IMG/VR virus record: IMGVR_UViG_2872698443_000007
Origin: a virus
Lineage: Duplodnaviria > Heunggongvirae > Uroviricota > Caudoviricetes
Length of the DNA: 37,278 nt
Strand: one strand, 5' to 3'
This document shows, one piece after another, positions 26,030 to 35,851 of the stretch. The translations under genes were made by a program, and so were the position numbers. Under the pieces are notes generated by a model. It worked only from the letters and a program-made list of their open reading frames with translations. It searched no databases and had not been told where the DNA came from. Within the stretch, counting starts at the first letter, position 1; each line of letters starts with the position of its first letter.

Positions 26030-27796
26030 TTAATTATTATCGTATAACTCCTGAATTTTTGCTGGATTAGCAAAAAACCTTGCAGGATAAGCATTTGGAT
26101 AATTATCTTCGATATAATTTTCTGTCCTAGCTATTAATGCTGCTAAATTAGCAGTGATTTGTGCTGAATCAGGAGCAAGCTGAATGGTACTATTCTGTAA
26201 ATCTGACACCATATTCAACAGCACTGAAGCATAATATCTATTACCATGAGTTATTATTAAATGACGGCGACTATGCGTTGATTTATCTGTAGCTGCTAAA
26301 GTTGAGCTAATAGCACGTTCTATCACACGAAAATGGTTAACAGCATTTATTAACTTGATACCACTTAATCGCGGATTGAAAATTGTTCTATATAATGACC
26401 CTTCAAAATTTTCAAAAAACCTACCACGATTAGATTTTAAAGTTGCAACTATAGTATTATTTTTACTTAAGCAAGCTAGAGCATTCAAAGCCTCATCGAG
26501 ATCAATTACCTTGGCGTTAGACTGTAAATAATCCTCATCGGTTCGCAATAATTGGTATTGATACCCTTCAAGCACAAGCTCTCTCGCCAGTCTATGCTGA
26601 TCGGGTTGTTGTGAAGCAAAATCTCTTCCTAAAACTCTATTCTGGAAATTATTAGCTCTGGTTATTGCATTGGCATTGAGATCATTTACATCATTATTAA
26701 TTTCAATAAAACGAACAGGGACTTTAACTTGATAAATTCTATCGCCTAGCACATCCATAACACTGCCTAAACTACTCACAGTTTGCGCGCCGTTGATCAC
26801 ACTCACATCTTTAAAATCGAAAACCCCTCTTTCAGTGCCTGCAGCTGCGTTTCTTCTGTGAGGAATTAACTCGTTCACTAGTAACGTAATACCGTTATTG
26901 TAAAACCAAAACATTTCTGGATTATCAATTGCAGTTTTTTTTATTTCTTCGTTAACATCTGTCTTACCAAGCATATTTCTTATGTTTTTCGTAAAAAGGC
27001 GGGTTCCATATTGTTTCCACCAATTCCCAACCTGGTCCCCAGCTAAAGTTCCATAAAATGCTCTGTAAGGTTCATTAATAAACCCATAGCGTTCAACTTC
27101 TACGCCATCCAAATCAATTTGACCTCTTGAGCCAGTCTGCAACCAATGGACTAAATCCTCTGATGAAATCAAATGAACTTGAAACCCCCATTCTTCTTTC
27201 GGTGATTCTGTCGGGGTAAACGACGCTTCATTTAATTCACGTTGCCACTCTTGCATATCACGTAAAATATCTTCTGAGGCACCTTTTTTCCCTGTGTGAG
27301 TCATAGCGAAGATAAATTTATAATCAAATGAATTAAGAGCTGCGCTTATATCTGAACTCTTATCTTGAAGAATCTGGTCAAAAAGTTCATATCGTTCATT
27401 CTGAAGTTTTTCACAAGCATCCTTGAAGCACACAAAATCAGGTCTGCTCCAAGTACCATTTCCAGCCTGATTAAATTTGGACTGAACAACTACAACAATT
27501 TTTTCACTATGATTTATGACTATGCCATCAATGCCTCCATCCTCAGAACTGTCGCATACAGACTCACCTGCATGCTTTTCATCAACACCACCAAGTTGAT
27601 ACATCGTAAACGCCGCCAGAGCCCTACTTGCCATTTTAATATTGTAATCTTGTTGACTGGGTTGGCACTCTCGCTTATGAACATAGTCTTCAAACCTTTC
27701 TCTCAAAACACTACCAAGCCTTAGAGCTATAACTTGCGCCGTCGCCGCTGCAGCTACAGCGTTATCCTCAACTCGGAGATCTACAACGAATGCCAT
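26030..27796 (-). CDS. cargo protein with N-terminal Mrr-type PD-(D/E)xK nuclease signature; function unknown, candidate defence effector
   Basis: ~588 aa from the first ATG at 27796 (AAGGA ribosome-binding site 8 nt upstream); the ORF track extends to a TTG at 27823. Motif ...EDGGIDGIVINHSEKIVVVVQSKF... fits the restriction-endonuclease D-x(n)-Q/E-x-K pattern. No Walker A motif. AT-rich relative to flanking phage genes. Confidence 0.6.
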   Translation of the reverse strand: MAFVVDLRVEDNAVAAAATAQVIALRLGSVLRERFEDYVHKRECQPSQQDYNIKMASRALAAFTMYQLGGVDEKHAGESVCDSSEDGGIDGIVINHSEKIVVVVQSKFNQAGNGTWSRPDFVCFKDACEKLQNERYELFDQILQDKSSDISAALNSFDYKFIFAMTHTGKKGASEDILRDMQEWQRELNEASFTPTESPKEEWGFQVHLISSEDLVHWLQTGSRGQIDLDGVEVERYGFINEPYRAFYGTLAGDQVGNWWKQYGTRLFTKNIRNMLGKTDVNEEIKKTAIDNPEMFWFYNNGITLLVNELIPHRRNAAAGTERGVFDFKDVSVINGAQTVSSLGSVMDVLGDRIYQVKVPVRFIEINNDVNDLNANAITRANNFQNRVLGRDFASQQPDQHRLARELVLEGYQYQLLRTDEDYLQSNAKVIDLDEALNALACLSKNNTIVATLKSNRGRFFENFEGSLYRTIFNPRLSGIKLINAVNHFRVIERAISSTLAATDKSTHSRRHLIITHGNRYYASVLLNMVSDLQNSTIQLAPDSAQITANLAALIARTENYIEDNYPNAYPARFFANPAKIQELYDNN

Positions 27797-27976
27797 TAAT
27801 TTTTCCTTATAGAATATGTACAACGTTAGCAGTGATTAAAAGGTTACTCGTTAAGCGGAAATTGTACTACAACATTCTACTAAATATGGATATATCAATG
27901 AGTAAGAACTCATCTTTGCTAACTCACATACATTGTTAAAAATACTTAGCTTCGCTGTTCACCCCGTCGCCGCGCG

Positions 27977-27995
27977 CTCGTATCCCCGCCACGCC
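27977..27995 (-). other. putative cos site (cohesive end)
   Basis: Minus strand reads GGCGTGGCGGGGATACGAG. The first 13 nt match my recollection of the 186 cohesive end GGCGTGGCGGGGAAAGCAT (P2: GGCGAGGCGGGGAAAGCAC); overall 14 of 19 vs 186. Orientation points toward Q, as in P2. Confidence 0.5.
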
Positions 27996-28042
27996 TGCCC
28001 GCTTTATGTAGTGGTTTTCATGCGCCTGCATGACATAAGCAA

Positions 28043-28066
28043 AGGCCCGCCATTCCTAGCGGGCCT
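28043..28066 (-). terminator. hairpin downstream of the 290-aa cargo gene (possible terminator)
   Basis: Perfect 8-bp stem AGGCCCGC / GCGGGCCT with an 8-nt loop, ~100 bp past the gene stop; the following T-run is weak. Confidence 0.35.
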
Positions 28067-28167
28067 CAGCTAAAACGATCCTCAAACGATCATGCGGATT
28101 CATGCGGCATAGTCATGCACTTGTGTGGTTACGAAGGAATATAGTTGCGAAAATCGATTAAAATGCC

Positions 28168-29040
28168 TTAAGCTCTCTTAATCAACCCCTTATGCGTTGC
28201 TTTGGTAAGATAAGCTAATTCTTTAGGCCCCTTATCTCTAAAGCCCACCCATTCTGGTTGGATTTTTATAAAACTTGGAATTGCGGTTGCCAAGGCTGTA
28301 ACCATACCGGGAATAATACCGCCTGAATAACCAGCAATAGCAGCATGGTACAACGGTTTTAAAAATTCCATAACCTGCCCACCATCTACTTCTGGATTGG
28401 CTTTGACTCCCATTCTGATAGGATTTCTCCATTTCCCTTCGATAGCTTTATCAAGATTAACTACAGCCTCTTGTAATAAAGAAAAATTTTTAGCCCTCGT
28501 TAGATTAGGGTCTCTAGAATAAAGGACTTCAGTATACAGTTTTTCTAAGTACTCATGTAACGCATTAAGATCATCCTGACAATCATCTTTAAAACGTAAT
28601 ATATCTTCTATATGAGCATCTTTATCAGGAATTCTCAGAACATTAAACAACTCCAATCTCAACTGAAGGGCCGTTTTCTGTTCTTTATCATATATTAAAT
28701 TTTCCCCTGTTTGATGAAAGTGCCAATAAGTAGCAGGCTCGTTCTTCCTGAATTCATCCAATGTCTGCAACTGAAATTCCGTATATAAAAATGGAAAGTC
28801 TTGGATATTCAGCATACCATCATGTTTCATAATAGGTCTACGTAATACCCCATTATCTAATAATTCTTTTTCTTTAGGCACAATCGAGTGAATATTTTCA
28901 CTATCTAGAATAACCACATCATCCCAGTAAAAGCAGAAATAATTAATATCCTGCTCAGTTAAACCTGCCCCAAGATAGACCGTACTATTATTTCTATGAA
29001 AACTCATTTCATTAGGATTAGCTACAATGCCACGTTTCAT
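28168..29040 (-). CDS. hypothetical cargo protein, function unknown (position of P2 tin/old)
   Basis: ~290 aa from the ATG at 29040 (AAGGAG ribosome-binding site 5 nt upstream): MKRGIVANPNEMSFHRNNSTVYLGAGLTEQ... Strongly AT-rich. C-terminal hydrophobic stretch GGIIPGMVTALATAIPSFI. No recognisable catalytic motif. Confidence 0.6.
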   Translation of the reverse strand: MKRGIVANPNEMSFHRNNSTVYLGAGLTEQDINYFCFYWDDVVILDSENIHSIVPKEKELLDNGVLRRPIMKHDGMLNIQDFPFLYTEFQLQTLDEFRKNEPATYWHFHQTGENLIYDKEQKTALQLRLELFNVLRIPDKDAHIEDILRFKDDCQDDLNALHEYLEKLYTEVLYSRDPNLTRAKNFSLLQEAVVNLDKAIEGKWRNPIRMGVKANPEVDGGQVMEFLKPLYHAAIAGYSGGIIPGMVTALATAIPSFIKIQPEWVGFRDKGPKELAYLTKATHKGLIKRA

Positions 29041-29251
29041 TCTTGCTCCTTGATAAGCATACACATTTTAAGAATGACATATATTCTAATAATTTCAATA
29101 CATTATGAGTTATAACTAAAAGTGCAGCATAGGTCTCGCCCTGATAGATAATCAAGTGATTACTGTCTTTTTACTTATGGTTAACGCCTCTCAAGGCTCG
29201 CGGTTCAACCTTGCTGACGCCAGAAGCAGGTTCAGACGCCAGCAACGTTTC

Positions 29252-29485
29252 TTAATGCAGCCAGCTGTCGTCTTCCCACACCTTCTGCATAATTTTCATC
29301 ACTTGTTTTCTTTCTTCGTCCAGTTGCAATCCGGTAAGTTCCACACCGTTAGAGCTACCTTTGCGGATACGAATTACCGTTTTGGGATACAGGGGGCGCA
29401 GATTGCGGTAAAGCTCGGATTCAAGGGCGTCCAGTGTAGACTGGCTAATCTTCTGCTCTTTATCGATCATTATTTCAATGCGCAT
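29252..29485 (-). CDS. DinI-family protein
   Basis: 77 aa from the ATG at 29485 (GAGGTG ribosome-binding site): MRIEIMIDKEQKISQSTLDALESELYRNLRPLYPKTVIRIR...WEDDSWLH, resembling DinI in length and pattern (MRIE..., acidic C-terminus with W). Confidence 0.7.
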   Translation of the reverse strand: MRIEIMIDKEQKISQSTLDALESELYRNLRPLYPKTVIRIRKGSSNGVELTGLQLDEERKQVMKIMQKVWEDDSWLH

Positions 29486-29495
29486 AAAAGTCACC

Positions 29496-29684
29496 TCAGC
29501 TGATGACATCCATTGAGCGGTTGTATTCGTGGGTTCTGATTTTTGCCATGAGTTCATCTGTCAGTTCAGAAACCCACTGCAGAGCCAGCCCCTTCTCTTC
29601 ATCACTACACTCACTAGCCGCTACAAGCTTAAGAAAAAAATCAATGCGCTGGAGCTTCAAAGACTCCAAAAAATAGTCCTGCAT
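29496..29684 (-). CDS. small protein, first gene of the LexA-controlled operon; candidate Tum-like antirepressor
   Basis: 62 aa, AGGAGG ribosome-binding site; directly downstream of a LexA box and upstream of the dinI-like gene. Confidence 0.5.
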   Translation of the reverse strand: MQDYFLESLKLQRIDFFLKLVAASECSDEEKGLALQWVSELTDELMAKIRTHEYNRSMDVIS

Positions 29685-29724
29685 CTTTCCTCCTATGACA
29701 CCAAAGCAATACTGTATACATAAC

Positions 29725-29744
29725 CACTGTTTATATTTACAGTA
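29725..29744. promoter_or_regulatory. LexA operator (SOS box)
   Basis: CACTGTTTATATTTACAGTA has CTGT-N8-ACAG with an AT-rich spacer, close to the consensus TACTGTATATATATACAGTA. Lies in the promoter region of the 62-aa/DinI-like operon. Confidence 0.7.
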
Positions 29745-29836
29745 TATAATAATCTTACTGATGTAAAACGTTTTTTTACGCTCATCAGCCTGATATGCCT
29801 GGTATTATTAAGAGCACGAATTGTTAACCCGCGTAA

Positions 29837-32251
29837 TTAATACAGGTTTCGCCACTTATCATCTTCCTGCAAACGCTGGTTCCGATAGAAGATACGCAGG
29901 CCTGCTCCTGACGGAATACTGCCGCCGCGAAGGAGTAAATCGACCTCTTTCTCGCTGCCATCAAATCCCCTGGACTTCAGTTCATACACGAGCTGCAGTC
30001 GCTGATGGTCTGTAATTCGCTGTTTGTAGTCTTTACGCCGTTTCGGTTTCACCAGGCGTAACCTTGCTGCCAGTTCCCGGCGCTCTTTTTTGCTCATACT
30101 GTGCAGGTAATCGTGCAACTCCTTGTCATCCATGCGGGTGATATCCGTTCTGGTATCTCCATCAGCTGATTTGTCTTTCCCTTGTTGGTACAAATTTTCA
30201 GCAAGGGGACAGTTATTGCCACGAGTCCAAGGGGCGCAAGCGCCCTGGTCGGCTGCCGCCTCCTGAACGTCAACGGCCTTACGAACCATTTTCCACTTCA
30301 CTGCATGAGTGCAGATCTTGCCCTCTGCAATGGGTGACCAGATGCCATAAATACGAATACCGTGATCACCATAGGCGGTCGGCTCTTCGTTGATTTCATA
30401 AGCGGTTCTGATCAAGTGATATTTGCGGGGAACCAACACGCCGCCCTGCTTCATAATGTAGGTGGCAAAACAGCCAGCATCAGCAGCAGCCAGAATGGCA
30501 TCAAGACGCGGATCATCCAGTACCGGCGCACCTGCTTTTTTGTCACCCTGCTGCCTTGCCGCCTGACCAGCCAGCAATCGCAGTTCACGGTAAGCCTGAC
30601 GCCCCGGAATGCCAAAGAAGCGGAATTGCTGAACACGATGCAGAGACGCCCAGGCATTAACGTATTCAGCGTTATCACGCAGGGATTTACCCGTTTCCTT
30701 GCTGATCTCGCCAGCCAGACCACGCCCGTCAATGTTCTTACTGATGTATTTCGCGATGTAGCTTGTCGGCGTTCCTTTGCGCGGGTTAATCAGCTCAGAC
30801 TTAAAGCGTGGCCCCGTGTTATTGCCCAGTTCCTCGCGGTCTTCACGGATGGCAAACTTACGCAGTAATGCAGTGATGGCGCGGCGGTCTTTTTTACGCA
30901 TGAAGCACATGAGATGCCAGTGCACAGTACCGTCATGATGCGGCTCAGCCACCCGCACGCCATACCACCGCAATCCGGCTTTGTGCATCGCCTTACGAAA
31001 TGCAGCAAACATGCCGACCAGATAATCACTGCTTTGTCTTACCGTCGCATTTGTCCAGGTCGGGTTTGGTCTGCCGTTATTGAGCGTGGAATGGAAACGT
31101 GACGGACAGGTGATGGTGTAGAAAACGGCGCAGTCACCGCGCATTTCCGCGATAAGCTCCAGACCTTTAACGCAGGCCATCATCTCATTGCGGCGATGTG
31201 CCGGGTTGCTGCTGCTGGCGTTTACCACATCTTCCATATCCAGCGTGTCTCCGTCTTCGTTCACCAGTTCATGAGAACGGAAAAACTCCAGCGACTTGCG
31301 GCGCTGCTCACGTTTATGCGTCACTGCTTCATAGCTGACATAGGGAGATGCTTTTTTGCTGACCAGACAGACAGCACGCAACTGCTCTTCCCGCCATTCG
31401 CAACGCATCTTCCACAATTTTCGATACCACCAGTCGGCGCAAAGCATACGTGCCAGCGAACCCGGTATGAGTTCATAGGGCACAGGTTTGCGGCGGTTTC
31501 TTTTCCGACGAAGTTTCTCAAACGCAGGCGGGATAACATCCAGACGCAGGGTTTCCGCAGCCACCTTTTCCCATGTCTTGCGGATTTCTTCTGGCTTAAC
31601 GTCATCGGTGGCGTACAAATCACCACAAGCGGCCTCAAGACACATGCTCATATGCGCTGCTACCAGGGTGGACAGGCGTTTCACCTGATCCTGGCTCATT
31701 TCAGGCAGGATCAGCAGCCCCTCCAGCCCTTGATGGCTTGCCATAAAACGGAAAGAAACAGATAGCTGACTGTCACGTACACAATCCAGTCGCTCCAGGC
31801 ATGGCTTAATCGTCTCACGCAAATAGCGGGAATAAGCCTTTGGCCTGCCCAGGCTGCTGAAGTATTCGATACGTTGCATCAGCGGCTTGCTGATATGAGA
31901 AGGCTGGGCGCTGACATCTGCCAGAATGACCATGTCCGGGTTAAAACGCTGCTGCTCATGCGCCAGCTTTGCCCGGCTAATGAGCTTATCCTGCTCCATT
32001 TCGCGCTGGACAGGATCACGGGATTCATTAAAGAAATAACGCTCCCAGACCTGCTCACTCAGTGCCTCGCGGCGCAGTTGTTCCTGCTCGTTATCGGCAG
32101 CGTACAGAGTGATCAGGTTTGAAAGTGCAGACTCCGGCGCAACTTCCGCCGGATCCAGATAAGGGTTAATGGCCTTTTTCGGGCCGTTCCATGAAAATGC
32201 TGCGGCAGCCTCGTTAAAGCCGCTAGAGTTGCTCATATCGTCATGACTCAT
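29837..32251 (-). CDS. A: replication initiation endonuclease A (rolling-circle)
   Basis: 804-aa protein in the early operon downstream of dam. Confidence 0.75.
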
Positions 32252-35275: not shown

Positions 35276-35851
35276 GTGACCATGAATTTGGAGAAAGGCG
35301 GACGAGGCGCTATAGAGCGCATGGTAGAAGCTTATGGATTCAAGACTCGACAGGCGTTGTGCGATCATTTAGGAATCTCTAAAAGTACACTCGCCACACG
35401 CTACATGCGTGACTCATTCCCAGCAGAATGGGTAATCCAGTGCGCCCTTGAAACAGGCACCTCGCTTAATTGGCTCACAACCGGGCATGGTTCAAAGCAA
35501 ACTTCAGGTAATACAAATACTATGGAAGTTGCTAAATATGTATTATCTGATGGGGCCTTGTGTGAAGACGGTTTTTATATTTTCGATAGAGAATTTCTAC
35601 CGTCGGCATTCAAGAATCTTTTTGTAATCACAGATAATAATTCTGAATTTATTTGTGATAAGGAATTTGATGATATACGTGATGGTAAATGGGTAATAAG
35701 TATTGATGGCGAAATAACGATCCGTGACATTACTCGTTTACCCGGTGGAAGAATCTTCGTCGAGGGTGGAAACAGAGCCTTCGAATGCAAGATAGAAGAC
35801 ATTGAAATAATTGGTAAAATTATAAGTTTAACAGTCAAGTATGTTAAATAG
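35276..35851 (+). CDS. cI: immunity repressor CI
   Basis: 191 aa with N-terminal helix-turn-helix (...LCDHLGISKSTLATRYMRD...); divergent from apl and upstream of int, as in 186. Confidence 0.7.
   Translation: MTMNLEKGGRGAIERMVEAYGFKTRQALCDHLGISKSTLATRYMRDSFPAEWVIQCALETGTSLNWLTTGHGSKQTSGNTNTMEVAKYVLSDGALCEDGFYIFDREFLPSAFKNLFVITDNNSEFICDKEFDDIRDGKWVISIDGEITIRDITRLPGGRIFVEGGNRAFECKIEDIEIIGKIISLTVKYVK

What the first reader, a model, noticed from the sequence alone, without database searches (positions are those of the whole stretch)
29252..29760. LexA-box-controlled operon: small protein plus DinI-like protein (tum-like SOS induction module)
A near-consensus SOS box (CTGT-N8-ACAG, 29725-29744) overlaps the promoter of a two-gene operon encoding a 62-aa protein and a DinI homologue. 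In phage 186 the SOS-inducible tum locus encodes the antirepressor that inactivates CI, and I recall it having a DinI-like portion. Here the two parts are separate ORFs in different frames, so this may be a split or two-component variant. It implies the prophage is SOS-inducible, unlike P2.
Basis: partly seen in the sequence, partly recalled or inferred. Interest (0 to 1): 0.55.

Follow-up and report, generated by a model that had tools for sequence, protein, structure and literature searches.

The report
SOS-controlled split Tum antirepressor module
This is the DNA-damage switch of a 186/Fels-2-like prophage: a LexA-repressed promoter driving a small antirepressor (TumA) and a DinI-like protein (TumB). 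The arrangement is already described for phages PSP3 and Fels-2, so it is real but ordinary.

Summary
A 20-bp LexA box (29725-29744, 17/20 to consensus, 0 of 100 shuffles) overlaps a 186-p95-like promoter. The DinI-like protein aligns with the C-terminal half of 186 Tum (41% identity). The 62-aa protein is a profile-level homologue of the Tum N-terminal half and of PSP3 TumA. It is not new: the two proteins are 98% and 100% identical to Fels-2 STM2728 and STM2726.1. The literature already states that Fels-2 and PSP3 carry tum split in two, with the upstream half the antirepressor. The module matched in 1125 of 5426 complete E. coli genomes. Two additions: the operator is a colicin-type double overlapping SOS box (second core 29712-29727), absent from 186 and PSP3. 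Also, an identical TumA accompanies at least 40 different CI repressors whose HTH N-terminal domains stay similar while their C-terminal domains diverge. That suggests, but does not prove, that TumA targets the N-terminal domain. Biochemistry is untested here.

The parts
29762..29767 (-). -35 hexamer TTTACA of the tumAB (p95-like) promoter
   Evidence: Read from the sequence. It lies 17 nt upstream of TACTGT, the same layout as the annotated 186 p95 promoter. It is invariant in 46 distinct relatives. Its function is inferred by analogy.
29739..29744 (-). -10 hexamer TACTGT, identical to the left arm of LexA box 1
   Evidence: The 186 record annotates the same hexamer as the p95 -10 and as the start of the LexA site. 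Inferred here.
29725..29744 (-). LexA (SOS) box 1, TACTGTAAATATAAACAGTG
   Evidence: 17/20 to consensus, and 0 of 100 shuffles reach this. The CTGT-N8-ACAG core is kept upstream of tum/tumA in 234 of 241 loci of three diverged types, while the spacer varies.
29710..29729 (-). LexA-type box 2, CAGTGGTTATGTATACAGTA (core GTGG-N8-ACAG 29727->29712). It shares one base with the core of box 1, as in the colicin-type double operator.
   Evidence: Near-identical to the colicin N operator. The combined pattern is unique in the window, 0 of 100 shuffles. The arms vary in 0-2 of 46 distinct relatives, the spacer centre in 17-20 of 46. It is present in Fels-2-type loci only, not in 186 or PSP3 types.
29496..29684 (-). 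tumA: 62-aa predicted antirepressor (AGGAGG Shine-Dalgarno at 29694->29689)
   Evidence: 98.4% identical to Fels-2 STM2728. Profile-level homology to the 186 Tum N-terminal half and to PSP3 TumA. 484 database clusters. The AlphaFold2 model is a helical hairpin with pLDDT 90.
29252..29485 (-). tumB: 77-aa DinI-like protein. Its Shine-Dalgarno (GAGG) overlaps the tumA stop codon.
   Evidence: Pfam DinI 6.6e-23. Identity is 100% to Fels-2 STM2726.1, 78% to PSP3 TumB and 41% to Tum 71-145. E. coli DinI (1GHH) matches at E=2.7e-6.
29207..29249 (-). Stable RNA hairpin just after the tumB stop, with no U-tract. Possible operon end or 3' stabiliser.
   Evidence: strand folding gives -28.3 kcal/mol, z=-2.5. 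DNA homology to relatives ends near 29182. Function not established.
35276..35851 (+). cI: 186-type immunity repressor, the presumed target of TumA
   Evidence: Pfam Phage_CI_repr (2.8e-33) plus Phage_CI_C (2.7e-27). The Peptidase_S24 hit is below its cutoff. Apl-like and CII genes lie adjacent.

Best explanation
This is the SOS-induction module of a 186/Fels-2-like (Peduoviridae) prophage in its split tumA/tumB form. In the lysogen, host LexA sits on a double, overlapping operator that covers the -10 region and the start of the transcript, and keeps the promoter shut. After DNA damage, RecA-stimulated LexA self-cleavage opens the promoter. TumA, a 62-aa helical hairpin, is made and binds the phage's non-cleavable 186-type CI repressor. 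That stops CI from binding its operators, so the lytic promoter fires and the prophage is induced. The co-translated TumB, a free-standing DinI homologue, acts on RecA filaments and tunes the SOS signal rather than causing induction. Shown here: the sequence features, the homologies, the conservation of both boxes and the presence of the CI target. Inferred from 186, PSP3 and Fels-2 and from colicin operators: LexA binding, antirepressor activity, and tighter or later induction from the double box. Inferred from co-variation only: that TumA contacts the HTH N-terminal domain of CI.
For: LexA box: 17/20 to consensus and 0 of 100 shuffles; its core is conserved in 234 of 241 loci of three Tum types while the spacers vary. 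Promoter layout: identical to annotated 186 p95. Position: directly downstream of gene A on the same strand, as in 186, PSP3 and Fels-2. TumB: Pfam DinI 6.6e-23 and 41% identity to Tum 71-145. TumA: PHROG cross-hits with the Tum N-terminal half and with the PSP3 TumA family, and hhalign P=2e-4. TumA and TumB are 98.4% and 100% identical to the Fels-2 pair. Literature: Tum is a LexA-controlled antirepressor that blocks CI operator binding. Fels-2 and PSP3 have tum split in two, and in PSP3 the upstream gene carries the antirepressor activity (PMC3121763). The PSP3 record annotates tumA as 'UV induction of prophage'. The CI in the window is 186-type with no S24 protease domain above cutoff. Double box; colicin double boxes bind two LexA dimers (PMC2994835). 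Co-variation: CI N-terminal-domain clusters match Tum type in 165 of 167 distinct combinations, whereas one identical TumA spans 13 C-terminal-domain clusters.
Against: No experiment on this TumA type was accessible. The antirepressor assignment for PSP3 TumA is a personal communication cited second-hand, and Bunny et al. 2002 could not be read. TumA-Tum similarity is only about 20% identity, invisible to BLASTP, and hhalign probability is modest because the alignments are shallow. A related Salmonella prophage with a tum homologue (BTP5) produced no detectable infectious phage (PMC5322425 and PMC7067206), so having the module does not guarantee inducibility. The 80 loci were also selected for having an identical TumA.
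Confidence: 0.85

Rival explanations
1. The promoter and genes are intact, but the module does not induce this prophage. It might be a leftover, or TumA might not match this particular CI, leaving an SOS-expressed operon without effect on the switch.
For: The tumAB segment is mosaic relative to the immunity region: an identical TumA occurs with CI proteins 37-99% identical to the window's. Two of 167 combinations pair a Tum type with the 'wrong' CI N-terminal-domain type. BTP5 carries a tum homologue, yet no infectious phage was detected.
Against: The window's exact CI (99.5% identity) recurs with this TumA in at least 11 independent viral contigs. All CI partners of this TumA fall in one N-terminal-domain cluster. 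Both operator boxes are under visible constraint. The prophage gene set looks complete.
Confidence: 0.08
2. The 62-aa protein is not an antirepressor but another SOS-induced small protein. It could be a partner or modulator of the DinI-like protein or RecA, or a host-directed factor. Induction would then work some other way.
For: Pfam, NCBIfam, PADLOC and PDB give no hit. Databases call it hypothetical. Its similarity to Tum is remote.
Against: It shares position, size, operator and downstream partner with PSP3 tumA and with the Tum N-terminal half. The profile hits are reciprocal and collinear. The CI lacks an autocleavage domain, so an antirepressor is needed for SOS induction.
Confidence: 0.05
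3. The DinI-like TumB, rather than TumA, is the effector of induction.
For: It is the only part with a named family, and annotators label it 'SOS induction modulator'.
Against: The 186 record describes the DinI-like internal-start product only as modulating SOS induction, while the full-length protein inhibits CI. In Gifsy prophages, non-polar dinI deletions did not affect induction (PMC3121763). TumB is 78% identical between PSP3 and the window although their CI and TumA types differ.
Confidence: 0.02

Closest known systems
Salmonella phage Fels-2 STM2728 / STM2726.1 (split tum)
   Same: Essentially the same module. TumA is 98.4% and TumB 100% identical. The promoter and double SOS box match, as does the position after gene A.
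   Different: The CI repressor is only about 41% identical overall: 71% in the N-terminal domain and 27% in the C-terminal domain. The downstream cargo genes also differ.
Phage PSP3 tumA / tumB
   Same: Two separate ORFs, a small antirepressor followed by a DinI homologue, behind a LexA box after gene A. TumB is 78% identical.
   Different: TumA is only about 22% identical and belongs to another PHROG family. The PSP3 halves are in frame, separated by TAG plus 3 nt, whereas here they are out of frame with a 10-nt gap. PSP3 has a single LexA box and a CI with a duplicated HTH domain.
Coliphage 186 p95-tum
   Same: A LexA box overlaps the -10 TACTGT. The N-terminal antirepressor part and C-terminal DinI-like part come in the same order. 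186 also releases a free DinI-like product, from an internal GTG start.
   Different: 186 encodes one fused 146-aa protein (77 of 80 relatives are fused). It has a single LexA box and orf97 downstream instead of the cargo found here.
Colicin operon operators (e.g. colicin N, E1)
   Same: Two SOS boxes overlapping by one base, with nearly the same sequence: TACTGTATATAAAACCAGTGGTTATATGTACAGTG against TACTGTAAATATAAACAGTGGTTATGTATACAGTA.
   Different: They control a toxin and lysis operon on Col plasmids, not a phage antirepressor. Cooperative binding of two LexA dimers is documented for colicins but only inferred here.
Gifsy-1/-2/-3 dinI-gfoA/gftA operons
   Same: A LexA-repressed operon that pairs a DinI homologue with a small antirepressor acting on a non-cleavable repressor.
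   Different: The gene order is reversed (dinI first), the antirepressors and repressors are unrelated, and the phages are lambdoid.

Membership tests
186 Tum / PSP3 TumA-TumB LexA-controlled antirepressor module | LexA box overlapping the promoter directly upstream of the first gene | tested here: met
   The 20-mer matches the consensus at 17/20 with 0 of 100 shuffles. The layout equals annotated p95. The core is conserved in 234 of 241 related loci.
186 Tum / PSP3 TumA-TumB LexA-controlled antirepressor module | Located immediately downstream of replication gene A, on the same strand, in a P2/186-like genome | tested here: met
   Gene A (Pfam Phage_GPA 3.5e-128) ends at 29837, and the promoter starts about 70 nt further on. 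The arrangement is the same in 186, PSP3 and Fels-2.
186 Tum / PSP3 TumA-TumB LexA-controlled antirepressor module | First part homologous to the Tum N-terminal (antirepressor) half or to TumA | tested here: met
   Reciprocal PHROG cross-hits: 2.4e-8 and 2e-3 in one direction, 5.9e-6 in the other. hhalign gives P=2e-4 over columns 3-42. Pairwise BLASTP was negative, so the homology is remote.
186 Tum / PSP3 TumA-TumB LexA-controlled antirepressor module | Second part is DinI-like | tested here: met
   Pfam DinI scores 81.3 bits against a cutoff of 24.2. Identity is 41% to Tum 71-145 and 78% to PSP3 TumB.
186 Tum / PSP3 TumA-TumB LexA-controlled antirepressor module | A cognate 186-type CI repressor without autocleavage is present in the same element | tested here: met
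   Phage_CI_repr plus Phage_CI_C; the Peptidase_S24 hit is below its cutoff.
186 Tum / PSP3 TumA-TumB LexA-controlled antirepressor module | The protein binds CI and prevents operator binding, and is needed for SOS induction | not testable with these tools
   Known for 186 Tum, and reported second-hand for PSP3 TumA. No experiment on this protein was found.
Fused Tum (186 type) | A single ORF of about 146 aa carrying both halves | tested here: not met
   There are two ORFs, separated by a TGA stop and a 10-nt gap, in different frames.
DinI (chromosomal, NCBIfam equivalog NF007893) | Score above the equivalog cutoff | tested here: not met
   42.7 bits against a cutoff of 111. It is a DinI-family member (Pfam) but not the host DinI equivalog.
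Colicin-type double SOS operator | Two LexA-type boxes whose 16-bp cores overlap by one base | tested here: met
   CTGT-N8-ACAG and GTGG-N8-ACAG share G29727. The sequence is near-identical to the colicin N operator. The arms are conserved and the spacers variable.
Colicin-type double SOS operator | Cooperative binding of two LexA dimers, giving tight and late induction | not testable with these tools
   Documented for colicin operators; inferred here.

The most novel reading that the evidence does not exclude
One invariant 62-aa TumA may serve as a shared antirepressor for a whole set of Fels-2-like prophages. Their CI repressors differ widely in the oligomerising C-terminal domain but keep a similar HTH N-terminal domain. 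TumA would bind that N-terminal domain, so SOS in one prophage would cross-induce co-resident relatives. The colicin-type double LexA operator, absent from 186 and PSP3, would make this trigger unusually tight and late. As far as I could check, neither point has been described.
Probability: 0.35. Interest if true: 0.45.

Novelty: already known. Interest (0 to 1): 0.25.

Why it matters
The result mainly matters for annotation. The 62-aa gene is labelled 'hypothetical protein' (once 'levan regulatory protein') in phage and genome records. It has no Pfam, NCBIfam or named PHROG family. Its segment nevertheless matched in about a fifth of complete E. coli genomes, and it is probably the trigger that makes these P2-like prophages SOS-inducible. 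The two side observations, the colicin-like double operator and TumA type tracking the CI N-terminal domain, give cheap and testable predictions about induction timing and cross-talk between prophages. They are refinements of a known mechanism, not a new one.

Tried and rejected
- Pairwise BLASTP of the 62-aa protein against 186 Tum found nothing. Profile methods resolved this.
- The generic sigma-70 scan reported no promoter. I rejected that as evidence of absence, because the annotated 186 p95 -10 (TACTGT) would fail the same threshold.
- The only 'terminator' hit of that scan (29507-29490) lies inside the tumA end and tumB Shine-Dalgarno, so I disregarded it.
- Pfam, NCBIfam, PADLOC and PDB sequence searches gave nothing for TumA.
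- Bunny, Liu and Roth 2002, the primary source for the split Fels-2 tum, is not held in the library. I could therefore not check whether the double SOS box was already noted there.
- Literature searches for tumA/tumB/STM2728 and for the Tum target domain on CI returned only noise.
- I did not run a fold search on the TumA model, because a two-helix hairpin matches too many folds to be informative.
- I considered that the LexA box could be a chance AT-rich match. Shuffles and conservation rule that out.
- A global correlation of Tum identity with CI N-terminal versus C-terminal identity did not separate the two domains (Spearman 0.54 against 0.49). Only the cluster cross-tabulation did, so the claim about the N-terminal domain stays an inference.

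Full report
**What is there.**
The window is a P2/186-like prophage, and all features below read on the minus strand. Replication gene A (29837..32251; Pfam Phage_GPA 3.5e-128) is followed by a short intergenic region. That region contains TTTACA (29767->29762), 17 nt, then TACTGT (29744->29739). TACTGT is also the left arm of a 20-bp LexA box, TACTGTAAATATAAACAGTG (29744->29725).

The bare core CTGT-N8-ACAG is unique in the window, but 0.52 matches are expected by chance. The 20-mer is the stronger test: it matches the consensus at 17/20, and no shuffle of 100 reaches that.

An AGGAGG Shine-Dalgarno lies 41 nt downstream of the box, followed by a 62-aa ORF (29684->29496). Its TGA overlaps the GAGG Shine-Dalgarno of a 77-aa ORF (29485->29252). 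That second ORF starts 10 nt later, in a different frame. It is a DinI-family protein (Pfam 6.6e-23; E. coli DinI structure 1GHH at E=2.7e-6). It is not the host DinI equivalog (NCBIfam 42.7 bits against a cutoff of 111).

**Comparison with 186.**
The 186 record annotates promoter p95 with -10 TACTGT, a LexA site starting at the same base, and tum (146 aa). The notes read 'expression repressed by LexA; inhibits CI DNA binding'. The record also lists internal-start products, the shortest of which (GTG start, residues 71-146) 'modulates SOS induction'.

- The window's 77-aa protein aligns with Tum 71-145 at 41% identity without gaps.
- The 62-aa protein gave no BLASTP alignment to Tum, but profiles connect the two.
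- It belongs to phrog_698 (3.6e-38) and also hits phrog_8554 (2.4e-8) and phrog_1993 (2e-3).
- The Tum N-terminal 70 residues hit phrog_1993 (1.5e-23), phrog_8554 (3.4e-12) and phrog_698 (5.9e-6). All hits fall over the same positions, about 6-44.
- PSP3 TumA is a phrog_1993 member (2.7e-32).
- hhalign of family alignments built here gives P=2e-4 for Fels-2-type against the 186 N-terminal half (columns 3-42 on 3-42), and 2e-5 for PSP3 against 186.
- Cys26 and Ala34-Leu35 are invariant across the four reference proteins.

An AlphaFold2 model of the 62-aa protein is a confident helical hairpin (helices 2-23 and 28-61, pLDDT 90). The conserved Cys sits at the turn.

**It is already known.**
The 62-aa and 77-aa proteins are 98.4% and 100% identical to Fels-2 STM2728 ('hypothetical protein') and STM2726.1 ('DinI family protein; similar to TumB of PSP3'). 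The PSP3 record names the equivalent pair:
- tumA: 'similar to 5' end 186 tum; UV induction of prophage'.
- tumB: 'similar to dinI and 3' end of 186 tum'.

Lemire et al. 2011 (PMC3121763) make three relevant points. Tum looks like an antirepressor fused to DinI. [quoted passage not shown] 2002 and a personal communication. The 2002 paper could not be read.

The segment is common. Part of the 1.7-kb query (tumAB plus the adjacent DUF6236 cargo gene) matched in 1125 of 5426 complete E. coli genomes, and 22 genomes carry it with the same downstream cargo. The 62-aa family has 484 clusters in the large protein collection, nearly all unnamed.

**The target is present.**
The immunity region encodes three 186-type regulators:
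- A 191-aa CI with Pfam Phage_CI_repr and Phage_CI_C. It has no S24 protease domain above cutoff, so it should not self-cleave.
- A small Apl-position ORF.
- A CII protein (Phage_CP76).

The prophage gene set looks complete.

**Wider comparison.**
I fetched 80 viral contigs for each of three query types: the window's TumA, PSP3 TumA and the 186 Tum N-terminal half.

| Type | Architecture | Count |
|---|---|---|
| 186-type | Fused ORF of 146 aa | 77 of 80 |
| PSP3-type | Split, in-frame TAG plus 3 nt | 49 of 50 with a recognisable TumB |
| Fels-2-type | Split, out of frame, 10-nt gap | 80 of 81 |

A CTGT-N8-ACAG core lies within 150 nt upstream in 234 of 241 loci. The N8 spacer varies freely. 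The seven exceptions are single-base variants, one replaced upstream region and one truncated locus. This is a clear footprint of selection on the LexA box.

**A second box.**
Aligning the promoters showed that the 186/PSP3 box lines up not with box 1 of the window but with the sequence just downstream of it. That sequence, CAGTGGTTATGTATACAGTA, has a core GTGG-N8-ACAG (29727->29712) that shares one base with the core of box 1.

The whole 35-bp element is nearly identical to the operator of colicin genes:
- Colicin N plasmid: TACTGTATATAAAACCAGTGGTTATATGTACAGTG.
- Window: TACTGTAAATATAAACAGTGGTTATGTATACAGTA.

More than 1100 plasmid records, mostly mobilizable plasmids and many of them small, match this stretch at 81-93% identity. 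[quoted passage not shown]

- The combined pattern occurs once in the window, with 0 of 100 shuffles even when one mismatch is allowed.
- Among the fetched loci it occurs in 71 of the 80 Fels-2-type viral contigs, in Fels-2, in vB_EcoM-813R9 and in the colicin plasmid. It occurs in none of the 160 PSP3- or 186-type loci.
- In 46 distinct Fels-2-type upstream sequences, the GTGG and ACAG arms of box 2 vary in 0-2 sequences. The two central spacer positions vary in 17 and 20.

I infer a double LexA operator covering the -10 region and the early transcript. It probably gives tighter and later firing than the single box of 186. Neither binding nor kinetics was tested.

**TumA and its CI partners.**
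All 80 contigs retrieved with the window's TumA encode an identical TumA. That is a consequence of keeping the best 80 matches. Their CI proteins, however, range from 37% to 99.5% identity to the window's CI, with 41 distinct sequences.

- Within this set the HTH N-terminal domain (residues 8-72) stays 58-100% identical pairwise (median 77%).
- The C-terminal domain (85-185) is 23-100% identical (median 34%).
- Across all three Tum types (167 distinct Tum/NTD/CTD combinations), single-linkage clusters of the N-terminal domain at 60% identity correspond to Tum type in 165 cases.
- The C-terminal domains form 21 clusters, and the single Fels-2-type TumA spans 13 of them.

This fits TumA recognising the DNA-binding N-terminal domain, in line with Tum blocking operator binding.

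There are three caveats:
- A plain rank correlation does not separate the two domains (0.54 against 0.49).
- The N-terminal domain may be conserved for operator recognition. Its recognition helix, SKST[LMV]A[TN]RY, is nearly constant.
- Lineage effects are not controlled.

**Verdict.**
The finding is a standard, previously described module, the Fels-2/PSP3 tumA-tumB form of the 186 Tum system. The double colicin-type operator and the pairing of TumA type with CI N-terminal domain are modest additions that I could not find described.

Noticed in passing
window 26030-29064 (minus strand): Low-GC (34-43%) cargo lies between tumB and the portal and terminase genes. One gene is a 597-aa AIPR-domain protein (Pfam 1.5e-31; PADLOC AbiU 5.8e-24). 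The other is a roughly 290-aa DUF6236 protein with no PADLOC hit. This is a likely anti-phage defence island, and relatives carry other genes at this position.
   Followed up: partly
L005-L084 (CI genes about 5.5-7.5 kb upstream of tumA): An identical TumA is paired with 41 distinct CI proteins. Their N-terminal domains stay at 58% identity or more, but their C-terminal domains fall into 13 clusters at 50% identity. The reason for this C-terminal diversification is unexplained. Avoiding mixed oligomers between co-resident repressors is one possibility.
   Followed up: partly
L009, L021, L026, L041, L045, L051, L056, L060, L068, L080; L086:319-1179: Ten of the Fels-2-type loci, like PSP3 (286 aa), encode a CI with two tandem HTH N-terminal domains instead of one.
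   Followed up: no
L004:3312-3323 and 49 PSP3-type loci: In PSP3-type modules, tumA and tumB are in the same frame, separated only by TAG plus one codon. Stop-codon read-through would recreate a fused, 186-like Tum. In the window's type this is impossible, because the ORFs are out of frame.
   Followed up: no
L005:9851-10000: In one contig with an identical tumA, the promoter and LexA box 1 are replaced by unrelated GC-rich sequence. Only the right part of box 2 remains. This is probably a variant that is no longer LexA-controlled in the usual way.
   Followed up: no
window 29207-29249 (minus strand): A stable hairpin (-28 kcal/mol, z=-2.5) built on a direct repeat of CTGGCGTC follows the tumB stop, with no U-tract. 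DNA homology with relatives ends about 25 nt beyond it, at the edge of the variable cargo region.
   Followed up: partly
L088-L247 (two loci among them): Two of 167 combinations are swapped: a PSP3-type TumA with a 186-type CI, and a 186-type Tum with a PSP3-type CI. They are either natural mismatches or evidence of cross-reactivity.
   Followed up: no
window 29710-29760; L248:1195-1245: The tumA operator region shares 81-93% identity over about 47 nt with the colicin promoters of more than 1100 plasmid records. This raises the question of whether the phage acquired its double SOS box from a Col plasmid, or the reverse.
   Followed up: partly
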